Source: an uncultured Actinomycetota bacterium (GTDB taxonomy: Bacteria; Actinomycetota; Actinomycetes; Mycobacteriales; Jatrophihabitantaceae). From it: a stretch of 24,000 nt of DNA. Where the stretch lies: positions 28,854 through 52,853 of the forward strand of contig CAVVJA010000017.1 of assembly GCA_963748415.1 (NCBI GenBank). The letters run 5' to 3'. The notes below the pieces were generated by a model. The model was not told the DNA's origin. It worked only from the letters and a program-made list of their open reading frames with translations, and made no database searches. Below are positions 358-18,503 of the stretch, piece by piece. The position numbers and the translations under genes are program-made. The first letter of the stretch is position 1, and each line of letters opens with the position of its first letter.

Positions 358-2424
358 TCAGCTACTCCCCAGGTCATAGACGGTCAGACCGCCTACGGAG
401 GTGGCCGTGAAGTTTGACGTCACCCAGTCGGTGATCTCGCTGCTGTTTCCGGCGCCGCCGCCCGGGCCGCCGCCCGCTCCGCCGACAATGAAGAAACGAA
501 TCTCTCCAGCGGCGACGTAGGCCTTGAATTGCGCGAGTGTCGGCGTCGGATCGGATCCACTCCAACCACCGATAGCCATGACGGCTTTGCCACCACTGGC
601 CAATTCGAGGCTGGCCGCACTTTGGTCGCCGACGGTTGCCGCGGCCCAGCGGGTGGAGGTGGTCTTGAGAAGTGCCGCGAGTTCGGTGTTGGACGAGCTC
701 GAAGCTCCCGGACCGGAGCCACCCGAGAACTCGCCTTGTCCTGACTGCAGATCGTTTCCGTTCCCTTGCTGGCTGAATGGGCTTCCGCCGCCCAGCCCAC
801 CGACGCCTGTCGCCGTATTCGACGTCGGTCCCGCGGACGGAATCGAACCAGCATGCGGGCTGGCCGCGGTATCGGCCGCGTACGCCGCCGACCCGCTCCC
901 GAGAGCGAGCAGCCCGGCCAAGCCGGCAACCGCGACGCCGCGCCGGCTGATCAGGTTCGGCGGGACCGCCATGGCCACCGCGGCGACAAGCGATATGACC
1001 AGGAGCGCATAGCGCAGCCAGGGATACCAATTGGCCGCCCGGGTCATCAGCTCGTAGCTCCATACGCCGGTCACCGCCACACCGGCGGCGAGGGTCAGCC
1101 GGGCGCCTATGGACGTACGCCGCCGCCACAGCACGACGGCGCCGATCGCGGCCAGCGCGGCGATAGCCGGAGCGAGTTGCACCGCGTAGTACGGGTGGAT
1201 GATGCCGCTCGCGTAGCTGAATACTCCGGCGGTTACGAGGAGCCAGCCGCCCCACAGCAGTGCTGCGGCACGGGTCCGGTCGGTTCGCGGCGCCCGGCGG
1301 GCGACGACGAACAAGGCGACGACCGCGACCAGCGCTGCCGGGAGGAGCCAAGAGATCTGCGTGCCGAAGTCGGAGTTGAACAACCGGCCGAGCCCGGACG
1401 AGCCGCCGAAGCCGCCTCCGCCACCGGGACCGCCGCCGGCACCGGGACCACCGCCGGCGGCGAGGTCGGCGCGCCCGATTCCGGGAAGCTGACCGGTCGG
1501 GCCGGTGCCGCCACCGCCCTGACTGCCGCCAGGTGCGCTGCCCGCGCCGCCCGTCAGCCGGCTGAGCCCGTTGTAACCCCAGGCCAACCCCCACACCGAG
1601 TTGTTGCCCGAGCCACCGATATAGGGCCGGCTGCTCGCGGGCGTCAACGTCACCGCGAGCATCCACCATCCGGCGCTGACGATCACCGCCGCGCCGGCGA
1701 GGAGCAGGTTGCGAATGCGCCGGCCTACCGTGGTGTTCGCGGCGACGAGGTAGACGATGGCGAGCGCGGGAAGCACGGTGAAGGGCTGCAGGCTCTTCGT
1801 CAGAAAGTCGAATCCCATAGCCGCGCCTGCGAGTACCAGCCAGCGCAACTTGCCGTCGTCGACGGCCCGGGTAACGCCGTAGGCAGCGACGACCAGGAGC
1901 AGCGTCATCAACGCGTCGGGGTTGTTGAAGCGGAACATCAACACGGCGACCGGAGTCACCGCAAGCAAGCCACCTGCGATCAGTCCGGCGGGCGGCCCAA
2001 ACCAGCGTTTGACCGTGAGATAGAGGAGTCCGACCGCCGCGACGCCCATCAGGGCCTGTGGGACGAGCATCGACCAGGAGTTGAATCCAAAGATGCGGCC
2101 GGCGATCTCCATCGGCCACAACGAAGCCGGCGGCTTGTCGACGGTGATGAAGTTGCCGGAGTCCAGCGAGCCGAAGAACATCGCTTTCCAGCTCTTCGTA
2201 CCGGCCTGCACAGCGGCCGCGTAGAACTGGTTGGCGTTCCCCGATGCGCCGAGATTCCAGAGATATAGCAGCGCAGTCCCGGCAAGCAGCGCGAGCACTG
2301 AAGGACGGACCCACGTGGGTTGGCCGACCGGACCTTGCAGAGCCCGGCGCACGCCACTCCGGCTCCGAGGCGCGAATGCCGGTGGGGATGCGTCAGGGCG
2401 AAGGTACGGGTAGGTCGTTGTCAT
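358..2424 (-). CDS. GT39 / ArnT-like (GT-C fold) polyprenol-phosphate-sugar dependent glycosyltransferase, polytopic membrane protein with a C-terminal extracytoplasmic domain
   Basis: Part of ORF 358..2592. N-terminal region 'FYAAAVQAGTKSWKAMFFGSLDSGNFITVDKPPASLWPMEIAGRIFGFNSWSMLVPQAL' plus many TM segments is typical of PMT_2/ArnT-like GT39 proteins. The C-terminus 'IGGWSGSDPTPTLAQFKAYVAAGEIRFFIV...TVYDL' matches the tail common in actinobacterial homologues. I chose the internal ATG at 2424-2422 (MTTTYPYL) because it forms an ATGA overlap with the upstream stop (2421-2424 = tcat on the plus strand). Confidence 0.85.
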   Translation of the reverse strand: MTTTYPYLRPDASPPAFAPRSRSGVRRALQGPVGQPTWVRPSVLALLAGTALLYLWNLGASGNANQFYAAAVQAGTKSWKAMFFGSLDSGNFITVDKPPASLWPMEIAGRIFGFNSWSMLVPQALMGVAAVGLLYLTVKRWFGPPAGLIAGGLLAVTPVAVLMFRFNNPDALMTLLLVVAAYGVTRAVDDGKLRWLVLAGAAMGFDFLTKSLQPFTVLPALAIVYLVAANTTVGRRIRNLLLAGAAVIVSAGWWMLAVTLTPASSRPYIGGSGNNSVWGLAWGYNGLSRLTGGAGSAPGGSQGGGGTGPTGQLPGIGRADLAAGGGPGAGGGPGGGGGFGGSSGLGRLFNSDFGTQISWLLPAALVAVVALFVVARRAPRTDRTRAAALLWGGWLLVTAGVFSYASGIIHPYYAVQLAPAIAALAAIGAVVLWRRRTSIGARLTLAAGVAVTGVWSYELMTRAANWYPWLRYALLVISLVAAVAMAVPPNLISRRGVAVAGLAGLLALGSGSAAYAADTAASPHAGSIPSAGPTSNTATGVGGLGGGSPFSQQGNGNDLQSGQGEFSGGSGPGASSSSNTELAALLKTTSTRWAAATVGDQSAASLELASGGKAVMAIGGWSGSDPTPTLAQFKAYVAAGEIRFFIVGGAGGGPGGGAGNSSEITDWVTSNFTATSVGGLTVYDLGSS

Positions 2425-3689
2425 GGCAGGGTCTCCACATCCGGTATGGCACGATGCCTGGCTGCTTGGACTGGTTGGCGCGGGGAGAAGACCCACTCGC
2501 GCAGCAGAACGAAGCGGAGCACGGTCGCGGCGAGGTTCGCGAGTAGGAGCACTCCGACCTCGACGAAGCGTGAGGGGTCGGCGCTGATCCACGACAGCAC
2601 AGCGAGCGCCCCACTCGTCACAGCCAGACCAAGTCCGAACACGAGAAGTCCTTGCAGTTGGTGCCGGGCGACGCCTTCGCCCCGCACCCCGAAGGTGAAT
2701 CGTCGGTTGGCGGCCGTATTCGCCACCGCAGTGACGAGGAGTGCGACCAGGTTGGCGAGCTGGGCGCCGAGACCAGCGCGGGACACGACGAACAGAAGCA
2801 GGTAAACGACGGTGCTGACGGCGCCTACGGCGGCGAACCGCAGGATCTGGCGCGCCAGCGATGGCGGCACTCCGGGTAACCCGATCGGTTGTCGGCCGAG
2901 CTGCTGGCGCAAGTCACGCAGGGGGAGGGCGCCGGTGGCGAATGCGCGCCCAACCCGGGCGATTCCTCGCAGGTCAGCGACGGCCGTGGCAACGATGTCG
3001 ACCCGACTGTCCGGGTCATCGACCCAGTCGACCGGCACCTCGTGGATTCGCAGCCCGGCGCGCTCGGCCAAGACGAGCAGCTCCGTGTCGAAGAACCAGT
3101 TCCGGTCGTACACGTAGGGCAACAGAGCACGCGCATGGTCCACGCGCATCGCCTTGAATCCGCACTGCGCGTCGGAGAAGCGGGCCCGAAGCGTGGCATG
3201 CAACAGAAGGTTGTAACCGCGGGAGATGAGTTCCCGCCGCGGGCCGCGAACTACCCGGGCTGTCCGCGACAACCGGGTGCCGATCGCCACGTCACTGTGC
3301 CCCGACATCAAAGGGGCGATCAGTGGAAGAAGGGCCGCGAGATCCGTGGACAGATCGACGTCCATGTAGGCGACGATGCGAGCGTTGCTGGCAGTCCAGA
3401 CGTCATGCAACGCGCGACCGCGACCTTTGGCCGCGACGTGGACGGCTCGCACGTCCGACAGCTCGTCTTCCAGCTGCTGGGCGATGGGCCACGTGCCGTC
3501 GGTGCTGGCGTTATCGGCAATGGTGATCACCGTCGGGAACGGGAACTCGTCGTGGAGGTACGCGTGCAATCGCCGCACGCTCGTCGCGAGGTCTCGCTCC
3601 TCGTTGTAGACCGGGACGACGATCTCGACGTCGGCCGTCCCGGTGTCGGTGGGGAGCACCAGCTGGGCGCTGGCCTCGATGGAGGTCAT
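2421..3689 (-). CDS. GT2 polyprenol-phosphate glycosyltransferase (GtrB / dolichol-P-sugar synthase-like) fused to a C-terminal GtrA-like 4-TM domain
   Basis: Part of ORF 2421..3989. GT2 motifs: 'VPVYNEE', 'DNASTDGT', 'DVDLS' (DxD), 'AQCGFKA'. The C-terminal 'ILRFAAVGAVSTVVYLLLF...NRRFTFG...LLREWVF' is GtrA-like. I chose ATG 3689-3687 (MTSIEAS), which is preceded by GGAG about 8 nt upstream. The longer ORF start would overlap the two upstream genes. Confidence 0.85.
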   Translation of the reverse strand: MTSIEASAQLVLPTDTGTADVEIVVPVYNEERDLATSVRRLHAYLHDEFPFPTVITIADNASTDGTWPIAQQLEDELSDVRAVHVAAKGRGRALHDVWTASNARIVAYMDVDLSTDLAALLPLIAPLMSGHSDVAIGTRLSRTARVVRGPRRELISRGYNLLLHATLRARFSDAQCGFKAMRVDHARALLPYVYDRNWFFDTELLVLAERAGLRIHEVPVDWVDDPDSRVDIVATAVADLRGIARVGRAFATGALPLRDLRQQLGRQPIGLPGVPPSLARQILRFAAVGAVSTVVYLLLFVVSRAGLGAQLANLVALLVTAVANTAANRRFTFGVRGEGVARHQLQGLLVFGLGLAVTSGALAVLSWISADPSRFVEVGVLLLANLAATVLRFVLLREWVFSPRQPVQAARHRAIPDVETLP

Positions 3690-3715
3690 GACGTCGCTCC
3701 GTCCGGAGTGGCGGG

Positions 3716-3916
3716 TTATCTCGGGGATTCGGCTATGCGCAAGGCCAGAGCTGGGCAAGCCGCTACCGTCCGTCGCTCGGCTCGGTCGTCGACCGGAGCA
3801 CCGCGCCGGCCAAGCAGAATGGGAAATCCCCATTCGTCTCGGACGAACTGTTCCGGCAGGAGTTCGGCGCACAGCCCGTGGCCATCGCAGCGCGTCCAGT
3901 CGATCTCGATCGTCAT
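3716..3916 (-). CDS. small ferredoxin (3Fe-4S/4Fe-4S single-cluster type)
   Basis: 66-aa ORF. 'CDGHGLC...' followed by '...ACPALAL' gives the CxxHxxC...CP pattern of small actinobacterial ferredoxins. Its start ATG 3916-3914 overlaps the upstream stop as ATGA (plus strand tcat 3913-3916). Confidence 0.7.
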   Translation of the reverse strand: MTIEIDWTRCDGHGLCAELLPEQFVRDEWGFPILLGRRGAPVDDRAERRTVAACPALALRIAESPR

Positions 3917-5163
3917 CGCGACCCTCCGATCGGAAGCTGACCTCGCACTGGACGCCCGCAGCCGCCTCGCAGATGCGCGGCGATGTCATCCGACAGCGCA
4001 GCTAGTCCGCTGCGGACGAATTGCGCCGCTCCGTCGGGATGCCGGCAGGCGCCGCGCCCGTCGACCAGGTCGGCATGACGGAGCCCCCGGGCGAGGCCGT
4101 TGCGGTCGCCCGACCAGATCGCTCGGACATCGCGAGCAAGGGCCGGCAGGCCGAACAGGCACGGTCCGCACTGCCGCGCGGACTCGGCCGCCAGCCAGTC
4201 GGTCACCCGCACGAGTTCGCCGAGCCCGCACGTCGTGTGATCCAGCACGAGGACGACGCCAGCGCCGAAGCTGCCCCCGGCATGGGCGACGCCCGCTCGA
4301 GATAGCCGCAGCTCGGGGTCGGCGGCCAGCCAGCGTCCGTGGTAGCCGCCCACAACCACCGCCTGCGCCGGCGCAGCGTGACCGGCCTCGAGGAGCACGC
4401 CGAGCGGCGTGCCCAGCGGCACTTCGACGACGCCAGCTCGCGATACGGCGCCGCCGAGCGACAGCAGGGTGCTGCCGGGTTCGGCGAGCGAACCGGTTCC
4501 GCCGTACCGCTGGGGGCCGAGACGCAGCAGCACCGCGAGCTGAGCGAATGTCTCGACGTTGCCGAGGATCGCGCCGAATGAACTGGCGTGGATGCGCCGG
4601 CCAGGGGGAATGGCCGGGCCGCCACGGATGGACCGCATCACGGCACGGGCTTCACCGCTGACAAATCCTCCTGGTACTCGATGGATCCGCACGATGCGTG
4701 CGTCGGAGCGCTCCGCGACGGCGTCGCGGACCGAATCAGCACTCATCGAGTCGTGCACCGCGAGAGTTACGCGGTGGGCACCGAGCGAGCCCGCGAGGCC
4801 CAGCGCCCCGTCCAGCACGAGATGGGGGGAGAAGCGCAGGAGCAGCCGATCCTTGATGCTCGCGGGCTCGCTCTCGCATCCGTTGATAACGACCTCGCGG
4901 CGCGTTTCCGCCGGCAGGGCGCGGATCTTGGCGGCGAGCGGAAAGCCCGCGCCGCCGCGCCCGGCCAACGCGACCCCATCGAGCATGCCCACCAATCGGG
5001 GTAGCTCGACGGCTGGCTGTGGGCCGTGTGTGGCACGATGCGCGCGGTGGTCCAGGCGGTTCAGCCCGCGATCGAGCCCGGCAAGTAGGCGGGGCGCGCC
5101 GATGCTCCACGCGATCGGCTCGGCTGGCGTGGTCGGGGCAGGGCGGATCATGGCAGCGGTCAT
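3913..5163 (-). CDS. NuoF-like NADH-binding flavoprotein (NADH:ubiquinone oxidoreductase subunit F iron-sulfur binding-region family)
   Basis: Part of ORF 3913..5373. Motifs: 'GRGGAGFPLAAK' (NuoF FMN/NADH glycine motif), 'VVINGCESEPASIKDRLLL', and C-terminal cysteines 'SARQCGPCLFG' plus 'GRGACRHPDG' (N3-type 4Fe-4S ligands). I chose ATG 5163-5161 (MTAAMIRP) because it overlaps the upstream stop as ATGA (5160-5163). Confidence 0.8.
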   Translation of the reverse strand: MTAAMIRPAPTTPAEPIAWSIGAPRLLAGLDRGLNRLDHRAHRATHGPQPAVELPRLVGMLDGVALAGRGGAGFPLAAKIRALPAETRREVVINGCESEPASIKDRLLLRFSPHLVLDGALGLAGSLGAHRVTLAVHDSMSADSVRDAVAERSDARIVRIHRVPGGFVSGEARAVMRSIRGGPAIPPGRRIHASSFGAILGNVETFAQLAVLLRLGPQRYGGTGSLAEPGSTLLSLGGAVSRAGVVEVPLGTPLGVLLEAGHAAPAQAVVVGGYHGRWLAADPELRLSRAGVAHAGGSFGAGVVLVLDHTTCGLGELVRVTDWLAAESARQCGPCLFGLPALARDVRAIWSGDRNGLARGLRHADLVDGRGACRHPDGAAQFVRSGLAALSDDIAAHLRGGCGRPVRGQLPIGGSR

Positions 5164-5735
5164 CGGGTTGCCTCGATCGGGACCATGGCGCGGCGCACGT
5201 AGTCGCGGCGAGCGAGCGAGACGAGGCGGGCCGTGATGGCAGCGAGCACCCCGACCAGGCAGACCAGGAACAACGCGTCGACCCAGCCCTGAACGACATC
5301 GGTGCCCGACTGGAAGCCGTGGATTATCGCGGCAGCCCATCCCAGGTAGGCCAGCGCGTGGAGCCCCCGCCAAACGCGGATGGCCTGCGGCGAACGGGCA
5401 AGTCGCCCTCGGCCGAGGCCGAGTGCGCTCACGGCGAGGAACACGTACGCGGCAACCGAGCCGAACGCCACCGAACCCGGTCGATAACTGGACTGGAAGG
5501 GTATGAGAGCGCCGAGGATGCCGACATGCGCTTTGGCGTCAGCCAGGATCGCCGTGATGTGCACCGCAAGGAGTGCCACCCCTAGGGCGGCAGCTGCGCG
5601 ATGCGCGTACTGGACGACGATCCGCCGCGCCGGGTTCGGGCTCGGCATCGAGACCAACGCCCCGAGCGCGGTCGCCGCGCTGAGCGCCACGAGAGCGGCC
5701 AGGCCGGCCCCGCGAGCGGTATACCAGAGCGTCAT
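5160..5735 (-). CDS. ferric-reductase-like / MsrQ-like transmembrane domain protein (putative di-haem b membrane electron conduit), TM domain only
   Basis: Part of ORF 5160..5771. About 6 hydrophobic helices carry paired histidines ('YAHRAAAALGVALLAVHI', 'GLHALAYLGWAAAIIHGF'), as in ferric-reductase TM domains. I chose ATG 5735-5733 (MTLWYTARG), which overlaps the ApbE stop as ATGA (5732-5735). Confidence 0.65.
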   Translation of the reverse strand: MTLWYTARGAGLAALVALSAATALGALVSMPSPNPARRIVVQYAHRAAAALGVALLAVHITAILADAKAHVGILGALIPFQSSYRPGSVAFGSVAAYVFLAVSALGLGRGRLARSPQAIRVWRGLHALAYLGWAAAIIHGFQSGTDVVQGWVDALFLVCLVGVLAAITARLVSLARRDYVRRAMVPIEATR

Positions 5736-6727
5736 GACAGCGCCGCTTCCAGGCCGACGGTGGGCCACCACGCGGTTGCCACGATGGTGCCGTCGCGAGC
5801 GACGAGCCGGGCGGCAAGCCTACGGGCGGTGAGCCAGTCGAGCGCCGCACCGCCGAGCACGATCGCCGCCGTGCTCGCGGTGTTGGCCGCAAGAGCTGAC
5901 TGGGCGTGCACGGTGACCGTGCGCCATGGTCCGTCGGCGGGCGCGCCGGTCGTGGGATCGACGATGTGGTGCATCGGTTGGCCGGCCCGCGTCCAGCGCC
6001 GGACCGTCGTGGTTGACGTCGCCAGGCCGCCGTGCCGCACGAGGACTAGCTGTCCCGGAGCGCCGGCCCGTTCCGCAACGAGCACATTCCAGCCGGGGGC
6101 ATTGCCATGAACGGCGAGGTCGCCGCCGATCTCCACCAGCACCGCGGTGCGATGACGGCGGGACAGCACAAGGGCGGCGAGGTCGGCCAGGTGAGCCTTG
6201 GCGGTTGCGCCCAGGTCCAGCGCGGTACCGGGCGGCACGGTCAACAGGTCGGCCTCCCGATCCAGAAGCACGTCGTGCCAACCCGCCTGCGGCGCAAGCG
6301 GGTGAACCGGATCGCTCGAATCCGCGACGGCGCGGATGTCCCGGTCGTAGCCGATGCGTCGCATGGCCAGGCCGACCGTCGGATCCACCACGCCACCGGT
6401 GACGGCGGCCGCGTCCAGGGCGACCCGCACGAACTCGACGAGGAGCGCGGGCACCGGCGTCGGCCGACCCGTGTTGGCGTTGGCGCGCGACAAGGCTGAG
6501 TCGGGGCGGAAGCGACTGGCGGTGCGGTCGACGAGGTCGAGCAGTGCGGTGAGATCGCGGGCCGCGGCGTCGCGAGCGGTCGGATCGGCGACGATCAGCC
6601 GCACCATGCAGCTCCACGCCTGTTGGACGTGCGTGCACTGGGCCAGCGTCGTGGCGTCCACATCGGCCGTGCTGGGCGTCCAGGTGGCTGGGCCCGGGCT
6701 GACTGCCGGGTCGAGGGTGCTCGTCAT
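5732..6727 (-). CDS. apbE: FAD:protein FMN transferase (ApbE family)
   Basis: 331-aa ORF. 'DSALSRANA', 'VDPTVG', 'ALDLGATAKAHLADLAA' and 'VEIGGDLAV' resemble conserved ApbE blocks. The start ATG 6727-6725 overlaps the upstream stop as ATGA (6724-6727). Confidence 0.75.
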   Translation of the reverse strand: MTSTLDPAVSPGPATWTPSTADVDATTLAQCTHVQQAWSCMVRLIVADPTARDAAARDLTALLDLVDRTASRFRPDSALSRANANTGRPTPVPALLVEFVRVALDAAAVTGGVVDPTVGLAMRRIGYDRDIRAVADSSDPVHPLAPQAGWHDVLLDREADLLTVPPGTALDLGATAKAHLADLAALVLSRRHRTAVLVEIGGDLAVHGNAPGWNVLVAERAGAPGQLVLVRHGGLATSTTTVRRWTRAGQPMHHIVDPTTGAPADGPWRTVTVHAQSALAANTASTAAIVLGGAALDWLTARRLAARLVARDGTIVATAWWPTVGLEAALS

Positions 6728-7077
6728 GATCCGTTACTCCCTGCTGCTGCAGCATTGCCCTGGTTGGTCGAGCCGATGCCGCTGGTGCTGTTGTCGGACG
6801 ACGCTCCGGGCGTCGGGGTGCTGCTCGCTCCGCTACTCGACGAACCTGGCGTGGTGGTCGTCGCGGACCCGGCGGCGGACCCCGTGGTGGCCGTCGACGT
6901 GGAGCCCGACGTGTCTGCCGAGGCGCCGGTCGCGGCGGAATTGGCAACTCCGGCCACGAGCGTCGCGCCGAGGGCCGCACCCGCCGTCGCGACGCCGGCC
7001 GCCGTGAATGTGGCGCGGCGCAACACGCGATTCGGTCGCTTGGGGGGTGGTGTCGTTGTCATGCGTACGACGATCAC
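6724..7077 (-). CDS. small secreted low-complexity Ser/Thr/Gly/Ala-rich protein with an RR-containing signal peptide; first gene of the operon
   Basis: 117-aa ORF (GTG 7077; alternative ATG 7062). The N-terminus 'KRPNRVLRRATFTAAGVATAGAALGATLVAGVANSAA' looks like a Tat/Sec signal peptide. The remaining ~70 residues are almost only S/T/G/A/P/N and include TGAS (6919-6930) and SGAS (6823-6834). The coding call rests mainly on the ATGA coupling to apbE and the signal-peptide-like start. Confidence 0.5.
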   Translation of the reverse strand: MIVVRMTTTPPPKRPNRVLRRATFTAAGVATAGAALGATLVAGVANSAATGASADTSGSTSTATTGSAAGSATTTTPGSSSSGASSTPTPGASSDNSTSGIGSTNQGNAAAAGSNGS

Positions 7078-7171: not shown

Positions 7172-7218
7172 GATGATCTTTGAGATATGGGCGCTATTGA
7201 GCCTGTTGCAAAATTGCC
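7172..7218. repeat. left terminal inverted repeat of the IS1182-family element
   Basis: Aligned by eye to the reverse complement of 12687-12732. Shared blocks are GATGATCTT, GAG, GAGCCTGTTGC and AATTG, with a 2-nt length difference. Confidence 0.6.
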
Positions 7219-7976
7219 GCGCGCCTCTGCGGGTTGATCTTGGGTGCGCCACGAGCGCAGAGAGGGGTCGCCGTAGGAGATCTCTTGATGCGGTGCTGTG
7301 CAGGTGATGAAGGATTGCTGGCCCTTCGGCGTCGCCCTGCGGGGGGAGGCGTCAAACCGCCTCATGCTGCGTTGGTTGGTGACCGTCGTGGTGAGCGATG
7401 AGGAAAAGGCGCACTTTGATGCGTCAGGTGGGGATCGGGAAGGCGAGCGTGAGCGAACCGCTGAGGACGCGTCGAAACAACTGGATGACATCAAAACCGG
7501 GGAGGCTAAGAGTCTCCGGGATGAGCCTGGCGGGTGCCCGCTGATTGGCCAGGCGGTGTCCGGCGTGAAGGCGGCGCGAGCCCGGTCTGCGGCTCCTGCA
7601 CGGAACGTGGGGTGCGCCGGGATAAACCGGCAGGAGGAAAGGGATGAGAACGCCCGACATCGAAGGAGTAGCGATCCACGATGGCCCCGAGTCATGCGTC
7701 GACGTCCGTGAGGGCGGCGGCGAAGCGTTGACAGGGGTACGTGCAGGCCGAGCTATTGAGCCGCGAAATCACAGTTCGGGGTGCCGACGTCGTCTCACGA
7801 GACGGAAGGCCACATCGCCGGCGGCGTTAGCGCGAGCCGTTTGGTGGACCCCGCGCGGTCTGAGAACCTGGCATGTACGGAGTCCTTCTGCGCGAGAACC
7901 GGGAGGTCCCACTGCTCGCCCGTCCGGATGATCACCGGGCGGGCCGCTCAGGGAAGGCTGAGGCGGTAAGCCTGGG

Positions 7977-9521
7977 ATGAACGAGCGTGGGAAGTCAGAT
8001 GGGCCCGTAGTACCGACGAAGCCGCCGAACAAGGCCGGGGAAGCGGCCGCGGAGGTGGTGGAGGGAAGGCGCCCGGCCGAGGGGAACACGGCCGGCAAAA
8101 CGCATCCCGGACGCAGAGCCGGGCAAGGCGCGCCAAGCGGGCTGGATCGTGTACGTGAAGTAGCACGAACAGACAAGGATGCACGGTTCACGGCGCTGCT
8201 GCACCACGTCAACGTCGACCGTCTGCGGGCGGCCTACCGGGCGATCAGCCCGAAGGCCGCGCCGGGGGTGGACGGGGTGACGTGGGCAGCCTACGGGCAG
8301 GATCTGGAGGACAACCTTCAGGACTTGCACCGGCGGCTGCACGCAGGCAGCTACCGGGCAAGGCCGTCGCGGCGTGTCCTACATCCCGAAGGCGGACGGG
8401 CGGCAGCGGCCGCTCGGCATCGCCACGCTGGAGGACAAGATCGTCCAGCGGGCCGTCGTCGAGGTGCTCAACGCCGTCTACGAGGCGGACTTCCTCGGCT
8501 TCTCTTACGGGTTTAGGCCGGGACGCAACCCGCATGACGCGTTGGATGCGCTCACGGTCGGGATCTAGCGGAAGAAGGTGAACTGGGTGCTCGACGCGGA
8601 CATCCGCGACTTCTTCACCAGGATTGATCATGGCTGGTTGAAGAGGTTCCTCGAGCATCGAATCGCGGACAAGCGGGTCCTGCGGCTGATCGATAAGTGG
8701 CTGAGCGCGGGGGTCATCGAGGATGGGAACTGGTCGGAGACGAGGAGGGAACACCGCAGGGGGCATCGGTATCACCGTTGCTCGCCAACGTGTACCTCCA
8801 CTACGTCTTCGACCTGTGGGCCGAATGGTGGAGACGCCGGCACGCGCGCGGCGACGTGATCATCGTGCGCTGGGCGGACGACTTCATCGTGGGCTTCGAG
8901 CACCAAGATGATGCGAGGCGGTTCCTGAGCGAGCTTCGCGAGCGGTTCGCGAAGTTCGGGCTGGAGCTACATCCGGACAAGACGCGGCTGATCGAGTTCG
9001 GGCGGTTCGCCGCCCAGAATCGGCAGGCGCGGGGCCTCGGGAAACCGGAGACGTTCGACTTCCTGGGCTTCACGCACATCTGCGGGAACACGCGGAACGG
9101 GCGGTTCTGGGTGCGGCGTATCACGATCTCGAAGCGGATGCGGGCAAAGCTGCGAGAGGTCAAGGACGAGCTCAAGCGGCGCCGACATCAGCCCATCCCC
9201 GATCAGGGACGGTGGCTGGCGAGCGTAGTGCGGGGACACCGCACCTACTACGCCGTGCCAGGCAACAGCGAAGCGGTGCCACCTTCCGCACCCAGGTGAC
9301 CAGGCACTGGCACGAGGCGCTGGAGCGCCGCAGTCAGCGCACCGGATGAACTGGGACCGGATGGACCGCCTCGCGACGCGATGGCTGCCGCCCGCCCGCG
9401 TAGTGCACCCTTACCCGAGGCGCGCTTTCGCGTTCGCACCCGAGGCAGGAGCCCAGTGCGGTAGTACCGCACGCTGGGATCTGTGCGGGGGGCCGCCCGC
9501 AAGGGCGGTCCCTACCGCGAT
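7977..9521 (+). pseudogene. group II intron reverse transcriptase/maturase, disrupted (at least 4 frameshifts and 1 in-frame stop)
   Basis: RT sequence is spread over ORFs 7977..8516 ('[33 protein letters not shown]'), 8374..8568 ('[26 protein letters not shown]...[12 protein letters not shown]', ending in TAG 8566-8568), 8578..8859 ('NWVLDADIRDFFTRIDH', same frame as the previous piece), 8697..9299 ('GTPQGASVSPLLANVYLHY...VRWADDFIVGF...LHPDKTRLIEF') and 9346..9609 ('NWDRMDRLATRWLPPARVVHPYP'). Confidence 0.8.
9449..9521 (+). ncRNA. group II intron domains V and VI (inner intron 3' end)
   Basis: DV: GAGCCCAGUGCGG-loop-CCGCACGCUGGGAU with the AGC triad at 9450-9452. DV has a UAGUA-type (non-GNRA) loop. 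DVI: GCGGGGGGCCGCCC-GCAA-GGGCGGUCCC(UA)CCGC, with a bulged branch-point A at 9514. Confidence 0.7.
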
Positions 9522-9747
9522 AAGGCGGGTGCCGACACGGCCGCCGCGTGTTGTGAGGCATGGGGTGGTGAGAGGGAGCGCGTCGTACGGCGGAATCCGG
9601 AGACGCTGAGTACCGTCGCGGCGCCTGCTGGCGGACCGGCTCGTAGTAGCGGTGAAGCCCTGTAATGGGGGTGGAGCGAAGGGGCCGGCTCATCGATGGA
9701 TTTGTTCGCGCGAGCAACCGGGATCGAGAGGTTCTGGGAGGAGACGA

Positions 9748-11019
9748 GTGGGCAGGCCAGGTCAGGCTGAAAAGTCGTTTGATATTCCGAAGCAACTGGT
9801 GTGGGAGGCGTACGAGCGAGTCAAGGCGAACAAGGGTGCCGCCGGGGTGGATGGGCAGTCCATCGCCGGCTTCGAGGCCGATCTGCAGAACAATCTGTAC
9901 AAGATCTGGAATCGGATGTCGTCGGGGACCTACTTTCCGCCTGCGGTGCTGGCAGTGGAGATACCCAAGACCGGTAGCGGTGCGGGCACGAGGGTGCTCG
10001 GGGTGCCGACTGTCGCGGATCGGGTGGCGCAGACGGTGGCGGCGCTGACGCTGGAACCGCGGACGGAGTCGATTTTTCATTCTGACTCCTACGGGTACCG
10101 GCCAGGGCGCAGCGCGCTGGATGCGGTGGCGGTGTGCCGCACGCGGTGCTGGAAGAAGGCGTGGGTCATCGACCTTGATGTGGCCGCGTTCTTCGACAGC
10201 GTGCCGTGGGACCTGATGGTCAAAGCGGTCGAAGCCAACATCACCACCGAGCAGCGTTGGGTGCTGCTGTACGTGAAGCGGTGGCTACAAGCTCCGCTGC
10301 AGTTACCTGACGGCACGGTGCGGCAGCGGGACCGGGGGACCCCACAAGGGTCATCGATCTCGCCCGTACTGGCGAACCTGTTCCTGCATTACGCGTTCGA
10401 TTCGTGGCTAGCGCGCGAGTTCCCAACGGTGGAGTTCGAGCGGTACGCCGACGACGCGGTGGTGCATTGCGTGACCCAGCGGCAGGCACAGCAGGTGCTG
10501 GCCGCGCTCACGGCGAGGATGGCCGACGTCGGGCTGCGGCTGCACCCCGACAAGACCAGGATCGTGTACTGCAAGGACGGAGACCGGCGTCGCGAGCAGC
10601 ATGAGCACACGTCGTTCACCTTCCTCGGGTTCACGTTTACCCTGCGGCAGGCGCGGGGCAAGCACGGGCTGTTCAGCTCGTTCATGCCCGCGGCCAGCCG
10701 ACAGGCCCTCGCCGAGATGGGTCAGCGGGTTCGTCGGTGGCGGCTGCACCGGTGGGTCCAACGGGACCTGGCCGAGATCGCCGCGCAGATCAATCCGATC
10801 GTGGCGGGCTGGATCAACTACTACGGCCGGTTCTACCCGTCGCGGATAGTGCCCCTCCTGCAGCGCATCAACACCTACCTGATGCGCTGGGCAGGCATGA
10901 AATACAAACGGCTGCGGTCCTACAAACGCTTCAAGGCGTGGTGGTTCGGGATCATCGATCGAGACCCCGACCTGTTCGCGCACTGGCGCATGGTTCGCAC
11001 GTTCGCCGGACTGCGATGA
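9748..11019 (+). CDS. group II intron reverse transcriptase/maturase, intact, compact (423 aa), no endonuclease domain
   Basis: Part of ORF 9652..11019. I chose GTG 9748, preceded by GGGAGGAG (9735-9742). Motifs: 'GAAGVDGQS', 'GVPTVADRVAQ', 'SYGYRPGRSALDA', 'GTPQGSSISPVLANLFLHY', 'RYADDAVVHC', 'LHPDKTRIVY', and the maturase/X motif 'IVAGWINYYGRFY'. The protein ends shortly after the X domain. Confidence 0.9.
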   Translation: MGRPGQAEKSFDIPKQLVWEAYERVKANKGAAGVDGQSIAGFEADLQNNLYKIWNRMSSGTYFPPAVLAVEIPKTGSGAGTRVLGVPTVADRVAQTVAALTLEPRTESIFHSDSYGYRPGRSALDAVAVCRTRCWKKAWVIDLDVAAFFDSVPWDLMVKAVEANITTEQRWVLLYVKRWLQAPLQLPDGTVRQRDRGTPQGSSISPVLANLFLHYAFDSWLAREFPTVEFERYADDAVVHCVTQRQAQQVLAALTARMADVGLRLHPDKTRIVYCKDGDRRREQHEHTSFTFLGFTFTLRQARGKHGLFSSFMPAASRQALAEMGQRVRRWRLHRWVQRDLAEIAAQINPIVAGWINYYGRFYPSRIVPLLQRINTYLMRWAGMKYKRLRSYKRFKAWWFGIIDRDPDLFAHWRMVRTFAGLR

Positions 11020-11022
11020 GAA

Positions 11023-11096
11023 GAGCGGAGTGACGGGAGACTGTCACGCTCCGTTCTGTGGGAGCCCGGGGGTGCGATCCCCCCGGGCCACCCGAC
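11023..11096 (+). ncRNA. group II intron domains V and VI (outer intron 3' end)
   Basis: DV: GAGCGGAGUGACGG-GAGA-CUGUCACGCUCCGUUC (34 nt, AGC triad, GNRA loop). DVI: GGGAGCCCGGGGG-UGCGA-(U)CCCCCCGGGCC(A)CCC with a bulged A at 11090, then GAC. Confidence 0.75.
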
Positions 11097-11115
11097 TGTG
11101 GTTGAGGATCGGTGT

Positions 11116-12647
11116 GTGGCGAAGGGGTTTCGGCCGGTGCAGCGGGATCAGGTGTTTCTGTTGCCGCCGGATATGCGGCAGTGGCTGCCGGCTGATCATC
11201 TGGTGTGGTTTGTGTTGGACGCGGTGGCCGGCCTGGATCTGGCGGCGTTTTGGGGGCGACGTCGGCTCGGCGGGGCTGGGCGGGCGGCGTATGACCCGGC
11301 GATGCTGGTCGGCTTGTTGATCTACGGGTACGCGGTTGGGCAGCGGTCGAGTCGGCAGATCGAGCGGCTGTGTCACACCGATGTGGCGTTTCGGGTCGCC
11401 TGCGCGCAGGACGTGCCCGATCATGTGACGATCGCCCGGTTCCGGGCCGAGCACGAGACCGGCCTGGGCGGGTTGTTCGAGCAGGTGTTGATCGTCTGCG
11501 CTCGGGCCGGGATGGGGCGGGTCGGCGCTGTGGCCCTGGACGGCACCAAGATCGCCGCGAACGCTGCGCTGAGCGCCAACCGCGGCGAGTCGGCGCTGCG
11601 GGGGCTCGCCGCTGGCATTCTGGCCGAGGCTGCGGCGGTCGATGCCGCGGAGGATGAGCTGTTCGGGGATCGGCGGGGTGATGAGCTGCCGCCGGAGTTG
11701 GCTGACCCGGACGGGCGGGCGGCGCGGATCCGGCGGTTGCTTGATGACATCGCCGCCGAACGCGAGGCCAAGTCGGCCGACAGCGAACGGACTCGGCGGG
11801 CCGCCGAGCGGGTCGCGCAGGCCCGCGACAGGCTAGCCGACACTCGGGCCGAGGTCGGCCGCCGCAACGCCGAGCGGGCCCGCTGGGAGCAGCTGATCCG
11901 CGCCGGGGGCGGCAAAGGACTACCCGGCCGCGCGGTGCCGGTCGAGCAGCACTACGACGTCCGGGCTGCCGCCGCCCGACTGGCCCACGCGCAGGCGAAT
12001 CTGGCCCGCGCCGTGCACCCGCAATCAGCAGCGCCCGGCACGCCCGGGGAAGCCAAACGCAACCTCACCGACCCCGACTCGCGAATCATGCCCACCCGGC
12101 ACGGCTGGGTGCAGGGCTACAACTGCCAACTGGTGGTCAGCAGCGACTACCTCATCCTGGCCGCCGACCTGCACAACCGCCCCGGTGACGTCACCAGCTA
12201 CCAGCCGGTGATCGACCAGGCCGCCCAGGCCGCCCGCGCGATCCGCCGCGCCACCGGCCGCCGCAGCCGCATCGGCACCGTGCTCGCCGACGCCGGCTAC
12301 GCCAGCACCACCAACCTCACCTGCCCCGGACCGGACCGGCTCATCGCTCTCGGCACCCGACACCACCACCACACCGCCGCCCGCGACAACCCCGCCCACG
12401 GGCAACCACCCCACGACGCCACCCCGTGGCAACGCATGCACCACCGACTACGAACACCCGCCGGCGCCGCCGCTACCGACACCGCGCCGCCATCGTCGAA
12501 CCGGTCCACGCCCACCTCAAAGACCGCCGCGCTCTCCGCGCCTTTGCCCGCCGCGGACTCACCGCCGCCCGCAGCGAATTCCGCTTCGCCGCCGCCGTCA
12601 CCAACCTCCTGCGACTCCGCACCGCCCTCGCCAACACGGCAACATGA
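11116..12647 (+). pseudogene. IS1182-family DDE transposase with one frameshift near the C-terminus
   Basis: ORF 11098..12777 (probable GTG start at 11116, '(M)AKGFRPVQRDQVFLLPPDMRQWLPADHLVWFVLDAV...AYDPAMLVGLLIYGYAVGQRSSRQIERL...ALDGTKIAANA...VLADAGYAS'). It loses the conserved tail around 12461-12475 in a GCC-rich run. The tail 'YRHRAAIVEPVHAHLKDRRALRAFARRGLTAARSEFRFAAAVTNLLRL' continues in ORF 12426..12647. Confidence 0.8.
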
Positions 12648-12686
12648 TCAACAACAGAGTCCCAACCGCCACCGGCACCAACACGC

Positions 12687-12732
12687 AGCCAATTACGCAA
12701 CAGGCTCTATTGGCATTAACTCCAAGATCATC
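12687..12732. repeat. right terminal inverted repeat of the IS1182-family element
   Basis: Its reverse complement aligns with 7172-7218 (see the left IR). It ends about 20 bp downstream of the sensor-kinase stop codon (12752-12754). Confidence 0.6.
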
Positions 12733-12751
12733 CGTGGGGAGCCTCAGGCGA

Positions 12752-14314: not shown

Positions 14315-14315
14315 A

Positions 14316-15008
14316 TCACCCTTCCACGTCCGAGGGGGCCATCAGCCGAACCCCGACTCCGCGCACGCTGTCCAGGTAGCGCGGTTCGGCCGCCGTCTCC
14401 CCGAGCTTGCGGCGCAGCCAGGACAGGTGGACGTCGACGGTGCGGTCGGAGCCGCCCTACGCGTGCCGCCAGACCTCGGCGAGCAGGTCGCGCTTGGTCA
14501 CCACCTCGCCCGGCCGCCGGGCCAGCGCGAGCAGGAGGTCGAACTCCTTGCGGGCCAGCTCGACCGGGCGCCCGTCCAGGGTGACCTCCCGGCTGCGCTC
14601 GTCGATCGACCAGGCCGCCGACCGTGATCGGCTCCTCGACGAGCGGCGCCGCCGCGGCGCAGCACGGCGCGGACCCGGGCGTCGAGCTGGGCGGCGCTGA
14701 ACGGCTTGACCACGTAGTCGTCGGCGCCGGCGTCGAGTGCCTGGACGATGCTCGGCGTCGTCGTCGCGGGCGGTGGCCACGATCGATCGGGACGTCGCTG
14801 GCCGCCCGGAGCATCGAGAGCACGTCAGCCCCGTCGATGTCCGGCAGTCCGAGGTCGAGCAGGACGACGTCGGGTCGCTGGGCCACGGCCGACGTGAGGG
14901 CGCCCATGCCGGTGTCGACCGAGTTGACGGTATGCCCTGTTCCCGCAGGGCGCGCATCAACGCCGAGCGGATTGCCGCGTCGTCCTCAACGAGCAGGATC
15001 TGGACCAC
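14316..15008 (-). pseudogene. OmpR-family response regulator, frame-disrupted (about 5 frameshifts and an in-frame TAG)
   Basis: Recognisable sequence hops between three minus-strand frames: 'MVQILLVEDDAAIRSALMRALREQG', then '[40 protein letters not shown]', '[11 protein letters not shown]', '[19 protein letters not shown]', '[12 protein letters not shown]', and '[50 protein letters not shown]'. A TAG follows (14457-14459), then my own translation gives 'GGSDRTVDVHLSWLRRKLGETAAEPRYLDSVRGVGVRLM...' up to TGA 14316-14318. Confidence 0.8.
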
Positions 15009-15019
15009 GGGAGCGAAGG

Positions 15020-15385: not shown

Positions 15386-15409
15386 GGCTTCAGCCTAGGC
15401 TTGCTTGCT

Positions 15410-17821: not shown

Positions 17822-17835
17822 GCGTAGGTGCAGCG

Positions 17836-18499: not shown

Positions 18500-18503
18500 C
18501 GGC

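What the first reader, a model, noticed from the sequence alone, without database searches (positions are those of the whole stretch)
6724..7077. Domain-less Ser/Thr-rich secreted protein in the slot where an FMN-binding domain would be expected
Seen: the gene ATGA-coupled upstream of apbE encodes an RR-type signal peptide ('RVLRRATFTAAGVATAGAALGATLVAGVA') followed by about 70 residues of almost pure S/T/G/A/P/N. This stretch has no Cys, no aromatics and no recognisable folded domain. It contains the tetrapeptides TGAS (6919-6930) and SGAS (6823-6834). Established: ApbE substrates are modified on the last Ser/Thr of an [S/T]-G-A-[S/T] core, normally inside FMN_bind or related folds. Ser/Thr/Pro-rich secreted segments are the usual targets of actinobacterial GT39 protein O-mannosyltransferases. 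Inference: this peptide could be a dual substrate, flavinylated by ApbE and glycosylated by the GT39 enzyme encoded in the same operon. That would make it an unusual disordered glyco-flavo-peptide. Caveats: in such low-complexity sequence the core motif can arise by chance. The upstream Asp of the fuller consensus, as I recall it, is absent.
Basis: partly seen in the sequence, partly recalled or inferred. Interest (0 to 1): 0.65.

Follow-up and report, generated by a model that had tools for sequence, protein, structure and literature searches.

The report
Small tail-anchored partner of atypical ApbE
The Ser/Thr-rich gene is real. It belongs to an unnamed small-protein family that always sits in front of an unusual flavin-transferase (ApbE) gene in soil actinobacteria, but its "flavinylation motifs" are chance matches; what is conserved is a membrane/signal segment and an almost invariant four-residue C-terminal tail.

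Summary
**Observation: confirmed.** Window 7077..6724 (minus strand; likely start 7062) encodes a signal/anchor segment followed by about 70 disordered S/T/G/A residues. It is ATGA-coupled to apbE.

**Interpretation: only partly supported.**
- [ST]GA[ST] occurs at chance level across 84 family members (9 observed, 8.4 expected).
- It is not positionally conserved even in 88–96 % orthologues.
- It never carries the upstream Asp.

**Not a truncated FMN_bind protein.** About 20 orthologous loci and 54 clusters at 50 % identity all encode small domain-less proteins of 64–131 aa.

**What is conserved:**
- a sequence-conserved hydrophobic segment (…AGALTVGLISGVVHT…);
- a variable low-complexity spacer (S+T fraction 6–70 %);
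- a C-terminus Q-x3-P-V-G-G-S-[N/H]-G-S-COOH, whose last four residues are near-invariant.

**The ApbE is atypical.** It has no signal peptide, and the conserved catalytic Asp is Asn in 120 of 120 relatives. The operon continues with a five-helix di-haem MsrQ-like protein, a NuoF-like protein and a ferredoxin. No operon protein carries a conserved canonical site.

**Best reading (inferred).** The protein is the extracytoplasmic arm of this electron-transfer module and its C-terminal tail is the functional end, possibly a non-canonical ApbE target. O-glycosylation of the spacer is plausible but untested and not essential.

The parts
6724..7077 (-). Small ORF: 117 aa from GTG 7077, most likely 112 aa from ATG 7062. 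Member of an unannotated small-protein family.
6946..7041 (-). Basic n-region (KRPNRVLRR) followed by a 21-residue Ala/Gly/Thr-rich hydrophobic segment ending GVANSA. This is either a signal peptide or an uncleaved N-in/C-out membrane anchor. It is the part under clear purifying selection.
6799..6930 (-). Variable low-complexity Ser/Thr/Gly/Ala spacer. It contains TGAS (6919-6930) and SGAS (6823-6834), which are chance-level and not conserved.
6727..6798 (-). Conserved C-terminal motif S-x-G-[ILV]-G-S-x-x-Q-x-x-x-[PA]-[VA]-[GA]-G-S-[N/H]-G-S-COOH; here SDNSTSGIGSTNQGNAAAAGSNGS. Codons GGG AGT (6741-6736) also form the Shine-Dalgarno sequence for apbE.
5732..6727 (-). ApbE-family protein (331 aa). 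It has no signal peptide, and Asn replaces the conserved catalytic/metal-site Asp (AANTAST).
5160..5735 (-). MsrQ-like di-haem membrane protein (191 aa). It has five hydrophobic segments, conserved H-x13-H and H-x12-H pairs, and predicted N-out/C-in topology.
3913..5163 (-). NuoF-like NADH/FMN/4Fe-4S protein (416 aa).
3716..3916 (-). Small ferredoxin (66 aa). Its orthologues hit Fer4_15.
2421..3689 (-). GT2 plus GtrA-domain polyprenyl-phosphate sugar synthase-like protein.
358..2592 (-). GT-C glycosyltransferase (PMT_2 plus YkcB_C). Its real start is probably ATG 2424, ATGA-coupled to the GT2 gene.
7199..12707 (+). Insertion sequence carrying two group II introns, inserted between the histidine-kinase gene and the small ORF. 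It is absent from orthologous loci.
12752..14314 (-). Sensor histidine kinase. In orthologues it lies about 165 nt upstream of the small ORF.

Best explanation
**Shown.**
- The ORF is a genuine member of a conserved, unnamed family of small proteins (64-131 aa).
- The family is encoded immediately upstream of, and translationally coupled to, a distinctive ApbE subfamily in soil Actinomycetota.
- Together they form a core module: small protein, ApbE, five-helix di-haem MsrQ-like protein, NuoF-like protein, ferredoxin.
- The family has three parts:
  - a basic N-terminus plus a sequence-conserved hydrophobic segment;
  - a low-complexity spacer of variable length and composition;
  - a C-terminus ending S-[N/H]-G-S-COOH.
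- TGAS and SGAS are by-products of composition.

**Inferred mechanism.**
- The protein inserts N-in/C-out, anchored or cleaved. The disordered spacer, probably O-glycosylated where it is Ser/Thr-rich, acts as a leash.
- The conserved C-terminal tail is the working end. It serves as the extracytoplasmic partner of the NADH -> NuoF-like -> ferredoxin -> di-haem conduit.
- In this it takes the role that a flavinylated FMN-binding domain has in ordinary MsrQ-like systems.
- The most likely specific version is that the tail is recognised by the co-translated atypical ApbE. S-[N/H]-G-S has the same Ser-x-x-Ser spacing as S-G-A-T, and the acceptor would be the terminal Ser.
For: **Synteny and coupling.** Conserved in about 20 loci, including divergent members.

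**Protein-coding constraint.** Purifying selection in the reading frame.

**Family size and shape.** Eighty-four members, including representatives of 54 clusters at 50 % identity out of 1.84 billion. None carries an added domain.

**C-terminal tail.**
- The last four residues are S 83/84, N48/H35, G 84/84, S 84/84. Q at -12 occurs in 67/84 and P at -8 in 54/84.
- The Gly codon at -2 varies synonymously (GGA/GGG/GGC). The terminal codon is always TCA, although any NNA codon would keep the ATGA overlap.
- The tail is kept in three loci where 37-70 nt separate it from the apbE start.

**Operon context.**
- No conserved [ST]G[AGS][ST] site exists in ApbE, the MsrQ-like protein, the NuoF-like protein or the ferredoxin. 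The small protein is the only exported product of the core module.
- Typical MsrQ-like clusters carry apbE plus an FMN-binding-domain gene, some with a NuoF-like gene, and orphan-apbE genomes remain unexplained (PMC8238504).

**Precedent for domain-less sites.**
- ApbE needs only a 7-residue unstructured tag, which works best at protein termini (PMC12052999).
- A flavinylation site on a C-terminal extension is known in FMN reductases (PMC11334425).
Against: - There are no experimental data at all.
- The tail is not the canonical motif: G-A is replaced by [N/H]-G and there is no Asp.
- The ApbE has no signal peptide in 120 of 120 relatives, so enzyme and tail are predicted to be on opposite sides of the membrane unless modification precedes export.
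- The ApbE has Asn in place of the conserved triad/metal Asp, so it may not be an active transferase.
- The G-S at -5/-4 are encoded by GGG AGC, which is also the Shine-Dalgarno sequence for apbE. Part of the tail conservation is therefore at the nucleotide level.
- A twin-arginine is present in only 40 of 84 members.
- A more distant subfamily (ApbE 48 % identical) has a different C-terminus.
Confidence: 0.4

Rival explanations
1. The peptide is flavinylated by ApbE at the internal TGAS/SGAS tetrapeptides and O-glycosylated by the operon's GT-C enzyme, giving a dual glyco-flavo-peptide.
For: - The tetrapeptides exist at the stated coordinates.
- ApbE can modify unstructured tags (PMC12052999).
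- GT2/GtrA and GT-C genes lie in the same operon in the window and in 6 of 10 diverse loci.
Against: - The sites are not conserved in the closest orthologues.
- Family-wide, 9 are observed against 8.4 expected, only 9 of 84 members have one, and none has the upstream Asp.
- The ApbE is signal-less and lacks the conserved Asp.
- The GT genes are absent from 4 of 10 loci, and some family members have almost no Ser/Thr in the spacer.
Confidence: 0.04
2. A purely structural membrane subunit. The conserved transmembrane segment supplies in trans the helix that the five-helix MsrQ-like protein lacks relative to six-helix MsrQ. The tail docks on the outer face of the cytochrome or is merely tolerated. 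ApbE acts on another target, or serves as a flavin-binding subunit.
For: - The hydrophobic segment is conserved in sequence, not merely in hydrophobicity (A30, L31, T32, L35, G38, V39, H41 near-invariant). This is unusual for a cleaved signal peptide.
- The MsrQ-like protein has 5 hydrophobic segments against 6 in E. coli MsrQ, and its K/R distribution predicts N-out/C-in.
- hhalign aligns its H-x12-H helix with MsrQ residues 144-168, which leaves one helix fewer on the N-terminal side.
Against: - The hhalign match is weak (E = 0.033, probability 1.5 %).
- The model does not explain the invariant C-terminal S-[N/H]-G-S.
- apbE lies between the two genes.
- A-x-A-type signal-peptidase sites follow the segment in most members.
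Confidence: 0.2
3. An export escort. The small protein binds the folded, signal-less ApbE through its C-terminal tail and carries it across the membrane by Tat hitch-hiking. This places the ApbE outside, where ApbE enzymes normally work.
For: - The window protein and 40 of 84 relatives carry RLLRR-type twin arginines followed by an Ala/Gly-rich, weakly hydrophobic segment.
- The ApbE lacks any signal peptide.
- Tight ATGA coupling would give matched synthesis of the two proteins.
- From my own knowledge, Tat hitch-hiking is known for HybOC and DmsAB.
Against: - More than half of the family, including the most populated clade (R-x-L-R-S-T-A-G), lacks a twin arginine.
- A 30-70-residue low-complexity spacer is not needed for an escort.
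- No exported canonical substrate is visible in the operon.
Confidence: 0.1
4. A regulatory or signalling peptide for the adjacent two-component system. Alternatively, a dispensable leader ORF kept only for translational coupling to apbE.
For: - In most loci the gene follows the RR-HK pair directly.
- E. coli msrPQ is likewise flanked by the HprSR two-component system.
- Part of the tail coincides with the apbE Shine-Dalgarno sequence.
Against: - When other genes are inserted, or the two-component system is divergent, the small gene stays with apbE and not with the kinase (L007, L025, L005).
- Purifying selection acts on the N-terminal 48 codons.
- Amino-acid-level invariance of [N/H]-G-S argues against a mere leader.
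- In this window the response regulator is decayed while the small ORF is intact.
Confidence: 0.1

Closest known systems
FMN-binding-domain proteins of MsrQ-like flavinylation gene clusters (Méheust et al. 2021, PMC8238504)
   Same: - Exported or anchored product.
- Encoded beside apbE and an MsrQ-like di-haem membrane protein in Actinobacteria.
- A cytosolic NAD(P)H-binding module is present; a NuoF-like protein was reported in 31 clusters.
   Different: - No FMN_bind fold, or any fold at all.
- No conserved [S/T]GA[S/T] site.
- The ApbE has no signal peptide and carries Asn in place of the conserved Asp.
- Such a cluster would have been excluded by that study's signal-peptide filter on ApbE and FMN_bind.
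[quoted passage not shown]
   Same: A small secreted accessory protein of an ApbE-associated cluster whose only strongly conserved element is a short motif at the extreme C-terminus.
   Different: - The motif differs: S-[N/H]-G-S against C-x-C.
- There is no Cys, so no thiol redox chemistry.
- The membrane partner differs.
Flavin-tag, and the C-terminal-extension flavinylation site of FMN reductases (PMC12052999; PMC11334425)
   Same: Both show that ApbE can modify a short unstructured sequence, best at a protein terminus. Natural substrates exist whose acceptor Ser sits on a C-terminal extension.
   Different: - Those sites are canonical D-x-x-[S/T]-G-A-[S/T].
- Here the Ser-x-x-Ser spacing is kept, but the middle residues are [N/H]-G and no Asp is present.
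E. coli HprSR-MsrPQ
   Same: - A two-component system lies next to an operon.
- In that operon an exported partner gene precedes a di-haem MsrQ-type membrane protein that delivers electrons outward.
   Different: - The E. coli partner is a folded Tat-exported molybdoenzyme.
- E. coli has no ApbE, NuoF-like protein or ferredoxin in the operon.
- E. coli MsrQ has six hydrophobic segments, not five.
Class IIb microcins such as MccE492 (from my own knowledge, not tested here)
   Same: An exported Gly/Ser-rich peptide with a conserved Ser-rich C-terminus (…SGSGS) whose terminal Ser carries a post-translational prosthetic group.
   Different: - Microcins use a double-glycine leader and an ABC exporter.
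- Their modification is a glucosylated catecholate added by MceCDIJ.
- There is no homology: the Pfam MccV matches at E >= 0.22 are compositional.
Actinobacterial Pmt (GT39) O-mannosylated secreted proteins (from my own knowledge)
   Same: A disordered Ser/Thr/Pro/Ala-rich exported segment, which is the usual acceptor type. A polyprenyl-phosphate sugar synthase and a GT-C enzyme lie in the operon.
   Different: - The operon enzyme is PMT_2 plus YkcB_C, not a canonical Pmt.
- The GT genes are missing from 4 of 10 loci.
- Ser/Thr content is not conserved across the family.

Membership tests
Canonical ApbE substrate | Positionally conserved [S/T]-G-A-[S/T] acceptor motif | tested here: not met
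   TGAS becomes TGTS or TDST, and SGAS becomes SSAS, in close orthologues. Across the family, 9 are observed against 8.4 expected, in 9 of 84 members.
Canonical ApbE substrate | Asp three residues upstream (D-x-x-[S/T]-G-A-[S/T]) | tested here: not met
   No family member matches D..[ST]GA[ST]. The motif definition is taken from PMC12052999.
Canonical ApbE substrate | Known flavinylated fold (FMN_bind, DUF2271, DUF3570, NqrB/RnfD, flavodoxin_4, FMN_red) | tested here: not met
   None of 40 members matches any of these families at E<=10. NCBIfam gives no hit. The AlphaFold2 model has mean pLDDT 49.9 and no secondary structure.
Canonical ApbE substrate | Encoded next to apbE | tested here: met
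   The gene lies directly upstream of apbE, usually with an ATGA overlap, in all loci examined.
Canonical ApbE substrate | Same cellular compartment as its ApbE | tested here: inconclusive
   The small protein has a basic N-terminus plus a hydrophobic segment. None of 120 ApbE relatives has a hydrophobic N-terminus. No SignalP, TatP or topology experiment was available.
Canonical ApbE substrate | Covalently bound FMN | not testable with these tools
   This needs in-gel UV fluorescence or intact-mass spectrometry.
Canonical ApbE FMN transferase (the neighbouring enzyme) | Conserved Ser241 / His257 / Asp285 (V. cholerae numbering) | tested here: not met
   Ser (-16) and His are present. The residue at +28 from His is Asn (AAN[TVI]AST) in 120 of 120 relatives, against A-D-A-x-x-T in 1vrm, 4xgw and 4xdt. 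Residue roles are from PMC12052999.
Canonical ApbE FMN transferase (the neighbouring enzyme) | ApbE fold / Pfam PF02424 | tested here: met
   PF02424 at 1.5e-47. PDB ApbE/Ftp chains match at 1e-20 to 1e-12.
MsrQ-like flavinylation-associated system (PMC8238504) | MsrQ-like (PF01794) di-haem membrane protein in the cluster | tested here: inconclusive
   There is no PF01794 hit, only Ni_hydr_CYTB at E = 0.17. Four invariant His residues form H-x13-H and H-x12-H pairs. The hhalign match to E. coli MsrQ is weak.
MsrQ-like flavinylation-associated system (PMC8238504) | apbE plus an FMN-binding-domain gene in the cluster | tested here: not met
   apbE is present. No FMN_bind gene was found in the window or in any orthologous locus.
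MsrQ-like flavinylation-associated system (PMC8238504) | Cytosolic NAD(P)H-binding donor (NAD_binding domain or NuoF-like protein) | tested here: met
   The NuoF-like protein hits Complex1_51K and NADH_4Fe-4S and nuoF_fam at 6.6e-39. A ferredoxin follows it.
Tat substrate | Twin-arginine in the n-region, conserved in the family | tested here: inconclusive
   The window protein has VLRRATF. Only 40 of 84 family members have RR in the first 30 residues.
Pmt/GT-C O-glycosylation substrate | Exported disordered Ser/Thr-rich segment | tested here: met
   The window spacer is 48 % S+T. The family median is 0.51, with a range of 0.06-0.70.
Pmt/GT-C O-glycosylation substrate | Dedicated GT39 enzyme co-conserved with the substrate | tested here: not met
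   The window enzyme is PMT_2 plus YkcB_C. The GT module is absent from L005, L006, L007 and L025.
Pmt/GT-C O-glycosylation substrate | Glycan on the protein | not testable with these tools
   This needs a lectin blot or mass spectrometry.

The most novel reading that the evidence does not exclude
The invariant C-terminal Ser of S-[N/H]-G-S-COOH is the acceptor of a new, non-canonical ApbE reaction.
- A cytoplasmic ApbE variant has lost its catalytic/metal Asp (now Asn).
- It uses the substrate's own terminal carboxylate in place of that Asp, which would explain why the acceptor must be the last residue.
- It loads FMN onto the peptide before export.

The product would be the first domain-less peptide-tethered flavin. 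It would sit on a flexible, partly glycosylated leash at the outer face of a minimal NADH-driven di-haem conduit.
Probability: 0.15. Interest if true: 0.85.

Novelty: new variant of a known kind. Interest (0 to 1): 0.58.

Why it matters
**An open question this addresses.** ApbE-dependent flavinylation is a major route for moving electrons out of bacterial cells. The field has stated that orphan-apbE genomes remain and that their substrates are unidentified (PMC8238504).

**What this locus contributes.** It defines a compact, strongly syntenic module in soil Actinomycetota with three unusual features:
- the expected FMN-binding domain is replaced by a domain-less small protein with a near-invariant C-terminal tetrapeptide;
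- the ApbE is signal-less;
- the ApbE carries a family-wide substitution of a residue reported as one of the few conserved active-site residues.

**If the tail is the ApbE target.** The recognition rules of ApbE would widen, and that would matter for the flavin-tag technology. It would also show a minimal peptide flavin carrier.

**If it is not.** The ApbE homologue has a different job, which is equally informative.

**Ease of testing.** Either answer needs only a two-gene co-expression and a UV-illuminated gel.

**A practical point.** The small gene is easily missed: gene callers picked the antisense ORF in two loci, and single-sequence searches fail on it.

Tried and rejected
1. **Single-sequence homology search with the ORF.** It found nothing, because of low complexity. 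A profile of 10 orthologues was needed.
2. **Truncated FMN_bind remnant.** Rejected. No locus has FMN_bind in the slot, and no family member is longer than 131 aa apart from two evident frameshift or deletion chimeras, P0171 and P0179.
3. **Recoding (frameshift or readthrough) that would fuse signal, linker and ApbE into one exported enzyme.** Rejected.
   - The frame offsets between the two genes differ among loci.
   - A stop lies two codons upstream in the apbE frame.
   - There is no slippery heptamer.
   - Three loci have 37-70 nt inserted between the genes.
4. **C-terminal conservation as a pure Shine-Dalgarno/ATGA artefact.** Only partly accepted.
   - GGG AGC does encode the Shine-Dalgarno sequence.
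   - [N/H]-G-S and the Q…P-V residues upstream are constrained at the amino-acid level.
5. **Another operon protein as the canonical ApbE target.** No positionally conserved [ST]G[AGS][ST] was found in ApbE, the MsrQ-like protein, the NuoF-like protein or the ferredoxin.
6. **The eLife supplement, searched for the 31 NuoF-like clusters.** The stored file is truncated and uninformative.
7. **hhalign of the MsrQ-like alignment against E. coli MsrQ.** Only a weak 25-column match over the H-x12-H helix. I used it as a hint only.
8. **GC-by-codon-position.** It could not discriminate sense from antisense frames in this composition. I replaced it with the substitution-pattern test.
Full report
**1. 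The observation**

The ORF is on the minus strand at 7077..6724. It is 117 aa from GTG 7077. ATG 7062 (112 aa, MTTTPPPKRPNR…) is the more likely start, because orthologue L003 begins there and the residue at position 5 of the longer form varies R/D.

- Its stop overlaps the apbE start as ATGA. apbE is 6727..5732 and matches PF02424 at 1.5e-47.
- After the basic n-region and an Ala/Gly/Thr-rich hydrophobic stretch come 69 residues: S19 T14 A13 G12 N4 P3 D2 I1 Q1. There is no Cys and no aromatic residue.
- No Pfam or NCBIfam family matches, even at E<=10.
- An AlphaFold2 model built on a 29-sequence alignment has mean pLDDT 49.9 and no secondary structure.

The descriptive observation is correct.

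**2. It is a real gene**

GC by codon position could not separate sense from antisense frames in this composition, so I used substitution patterns instead. In 14 close orthologues the first 48 codons vary at codon positions 1/2/3 = 4/1/20. Eighteen codon columns show only synonymous changes and 4 show amino-acid changes. The remainder varies at 31/15/47. All indels are whole codons.

Automatic gene callers chose the antisense ORF instead of this gene in two related loci. A single-sequence search found nothing. The family is therefore easy to overlook.

**3. Genomic context**

The operon on the minus strand is:

| Gene | Coordinates | Notes |
|---|---|---|
| Small protein | 7062/7077..6724 | this finding |
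| ApbE | 6727..5732 | PF02424 |
| MsrQ-like membrane protein | 5735..5160 | 191 aa |
| NuoF-like protein | 5163..3913 | NADH/FMN/4Fe-4S |
| Ferredoxin | 3916..3716 | 66 aa |
| GT2 + GtrA | 3689..2421 | sugar synthase-like |
| GT-C glycosyltransferase | ~2424..358 | PMT_2 + YkcB_C |

. Every gene starts ATGAC and overlaps the preceding stop.

The membrane protein has no significant Pfam hit. It does have four invariant His residues arranged as H-x13-H and H-x12-H. It has five hydrophobic segments against six in E. coli MsrQ, and its Lys/Arg distribution predicts an N-out/C-in topology. hhalign gives only a weak match of its H-x12-H helix to MsrQ residues 144-168.

Futalosine-pathway menaquinone genes flank the region. 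In orthologous loci, cytochrome c maturation genes lie on the other side.

Upstream of the small ORF lies a 5.5-kb insertion sequence at 7199-12707.
- It has 18-bp terminal inverted repeats and a TATT duplication.
- It is itself invaded by two group II introns.
- It is absent from orthologues, where the histidine-kinase gene ends about 165 nt before the small ORF.

**4. Orthologous loci**

The genome and metagenome scans with ApbE, and the contig look-ups, gave about 20 loci with ApbE identity from 98 % down to 48 %.
- All have a small signal-bearing ORF directly upstream of apbE.
- None has an FMN_bind gene.
- The core of small protein, ApbE, MsrQ-like protein, NuoF-like protein and ferredoxin is constant.
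- The GT2/GT-C pair is present in 6 of 10 diverse loci and absent from L005, L006, L007 and L025.

A profile search found 33 further members. The exhaustive search of 1.84 billion representatives found 54 clusters, all 64-131 aa except two obvious chimeras, and none with an added domain.

The 'truncated FMN_bind remnant' refutation is therefore not met. The 'FMN_bind lost here' idea applies, if at all, to the whole lineage.

**5. The flavinylation motifs are chance matches**
- TGAS reads TGTS or TDST, and SGAS reads SSAS, in loci whose ApbE is 88-96 % identical.
- In the window ORF, two matches are observed against 0.55 expected (P about 0.095).
- Over 84 family members there are 9 matches against 8.4 expected from composition-preserving shuffles. 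Only 9 members have any.
- No member has the full D-x-x-[S/T]-G-A-[S/T] motif, which the 2025 review gives as the recognition sequence (PMC12052999).
- No positionally conserved [ST]G[AGS][ST] exists in the other four core proteins either.

**6. What is actually conserved**

*The N-terminal segment.* A basic n-region is followed by a hydrophobic segment that is conserved in sequence (…AGALTVGLISGVVHT…). A30, L31, T32, L35, G38, V39 and H41 are near-invariant. A-x-A-type sites usually follow it. A twin arginine is present in the window and in 40 of 84 members.

*The spacer.* It is variable in length and composition. The S+T fraction ranges from 0.06 to 0.70, with a median of 0.51. Ser/Thr richness is therefore typical of the family but not defining.

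*The C-terminus.* Its consensus is …S-T-x-G-[ILV]-G-S-x-x-Q-N-x-Q-P-V-G-G-S-[N/H]-G-S-COOH. The last four residues are S 83/84, N48/H35, G 84/84 and S 84/84.

Part of the tail's conservation is at the nucleotide level. G-S at -5/-4 are almost always GGG AGC, which is the Shine-Dalgarno sequence placed 9 nt before the apbE ATG. The rest is at the amino-acid level:
- the Gly at -2 uses GGA, GGG and GGC;
- the last codon is always TCA, although any NNA codon would preserve the ATGA overlap;
- the Q…P-V positions lie beyond the ribosome-binding site;
- the tail is unchanged in three loci where 37-70 nt now separate it from the apbE start.

**7. The ApbE is atypical**
- All 120 closest relatives lack any hydrophobic N-terminus. 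The fold starts at about residue 8 of the 303-aa forms.
- Alignment to solved ApbE/Ftp structures puts Asn (AAN[TVI]AST) where they have Asp (A-D-A-x-x-T), 28 residues after the catalytic His.
- The review names Ser241, His257 and Asp285 as the only conserved active-site residues, and describes a proposed Asp-Ser-His triad (PMC12052999).
- Cytosolic ApbEs are known, but I found no description of this variant.

**8. Mechanism**

*Shown:* the family, its synteny and coupling, its architecture, and the absence of a canonical site.

*Inferred:*
- The protein inserts N-in/C-out, the spacer is a flexible leash, and the invariant tail is the functional end.
- By position and topology it stands where the flavinylated FMN-binding protein stands in ordinary MsrQ-like systems (PMC8238504).
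- I therefore take it to be the extracytoplasmic arm of the NADH -> NuoF-like -> ferredoxin -> di-haem conduit.

The most specific version is that the tail is the ApbE target.
- S-[N/H]-G-S keeps the Ser-x-x-Ser spacing of S-G-A-T.
- ApbE modifies short unstructured tags best at termini.
- A natural site on a C-terminal extension exists (PMC11334425).

Against this: the non-canonical middle residues, the predicted opposite compartments, and the Asn substitution.

Rival readings:
- a structural sixth-helix subunit;
- a Tat escort for the signal-less ApbE;
- a regulatory peptide;

O-glycosylation of the spacer is reasonable from general knowledge of actinobacterial Pmt substrates. It is neither tested nor required by the family pattern.

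**9. Comparison with known systems**

The module works like an MsrQ-like flavinylation-associated system with a NuoF-like donor. It fails that system's membership test on the FMN-binding-domain gene and on the exported ApbE.

[quoted passage not shown] It also resembles flavin-tag-like terminal sites. It is not a member of any described family. I file it as a new variant of a known kind.

**10. Verdict**

| Question | Verdict |
|---|---|
| Observation | confirmed |
| Interpretation | partly supported |
| Link to ApbE | supported |
| Specific sites (TGAS/SGAS) | not supported |
| Glycosylation | untested |

Interest is 0.58. The finding gives a cheap, direct experiment on an acknowledged gap, the orphan ApbEs, and it shows a family-wide active-site change. 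Everything about function remains inference.

Noticed in passing
window 5732-6727 (-): The ApbE homologue and all 120 closest database relatives lack a signal peptide. All carry Asn where solved ApbE/Ftp structures have the conserved catalytic/metal Asp (AANxAST against ADAxxT). This defines a distinct ApbE subfamily.
   Followed up: partly
window ~14311-15010 (-): The response-regulator gene upstream of the histidine kinase looks like a pseudogene. Relative to L001 it has 13 indel events, an in-frame TAG and 87 % nucleotide identity. The adjacent HK and apbE have no indels at 95-96 % identity. A local assembly error was not excluded.
   Followed up: partly
window 7199-12707: A 5.5-kb insertion sequence sits between the HK gene and the small ORF and is absent from orthologues.
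- It has 18-bp terminal inverted repeats (GAGCCTGTTGC…) and a TATT target duplication.
- Its DUF772/DDE transposase ORF is at 11098-12777.
- It is invaded by two group II introns. One has a frameshifted RT (7977-9299). The other has an intact RT/maturase (9652-11019), with domain V/VI at 11021-11096.
   Followed up: partly
window 5160-5735 (-): The MsrQ-like di-haem protein has five hydrophobic segments, against six in E. coli MsrQ. It has no Pfam hit, and its Lys/Arg distribution predicts N-out/C-in. The small protein's conserved transmembrane segment could supply the missing first helix; this is speculation.
   Followed up: partly
window 358-7062 (-): All seven operon genes begin ATGAC and overlap the preceding stop codon as ATGA. 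This is an unusually uniform chain of translational coupling.
   Followed up: yes
L022 6614-6943 and L023 6618-6974: Public gene calls in these loci annotate the antisense ORF (109 and 118 aa) instead of the small signal-bearing gene. The family is therefore under-represented in protein databases.
   Followed up: partly
L007 6964-7000; L023 6943-7000; L024 6931-7000: Short insertions of 37-70 nt separate the small-ORF stop (TCATGA) from the apbE ATG. In L023 and L024 they begin with GCGAGC… directly after TCATGA, which suggests a small duplication or repeat insertion. The C-terminal tail codons are unchanged.
   Followed up: no
L005 7476-7862; L019 14-400; L020 815-1201: A more distant subfamily (ApbE about 48 % identical) has a different small protein in the same slot. 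It has two Cys residues, a conserved VTVPVATSGGSGVTTT stretch, and a C-terminus …NHGEGGGD or …YSHEGGDQ. Its two-component system is divergently oriented.
   Followed up: no
window 15405-23812; L006, L007 and L025 flanks: The module sits in a respiratory neighbourhood. Futalosine-pathway menaquinone genes lie on one side (UbiD-like, UbiX-like, a radical-SAM MqnC/E-like gene, and a VitK2_biosynth family gene). In orthologues, cytochrome c maturation genes (ccsA, resB, ccdA, a thioredoxin-like gene) lie on the other side.
   Followed up: partly
protein P0179 (117 aa, metagenome): A chimeric product joins the small protein's N-terminal 35 residues to the middle of ApbE. It is probably a deletion variant or a misassembly.
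   Followed up: no
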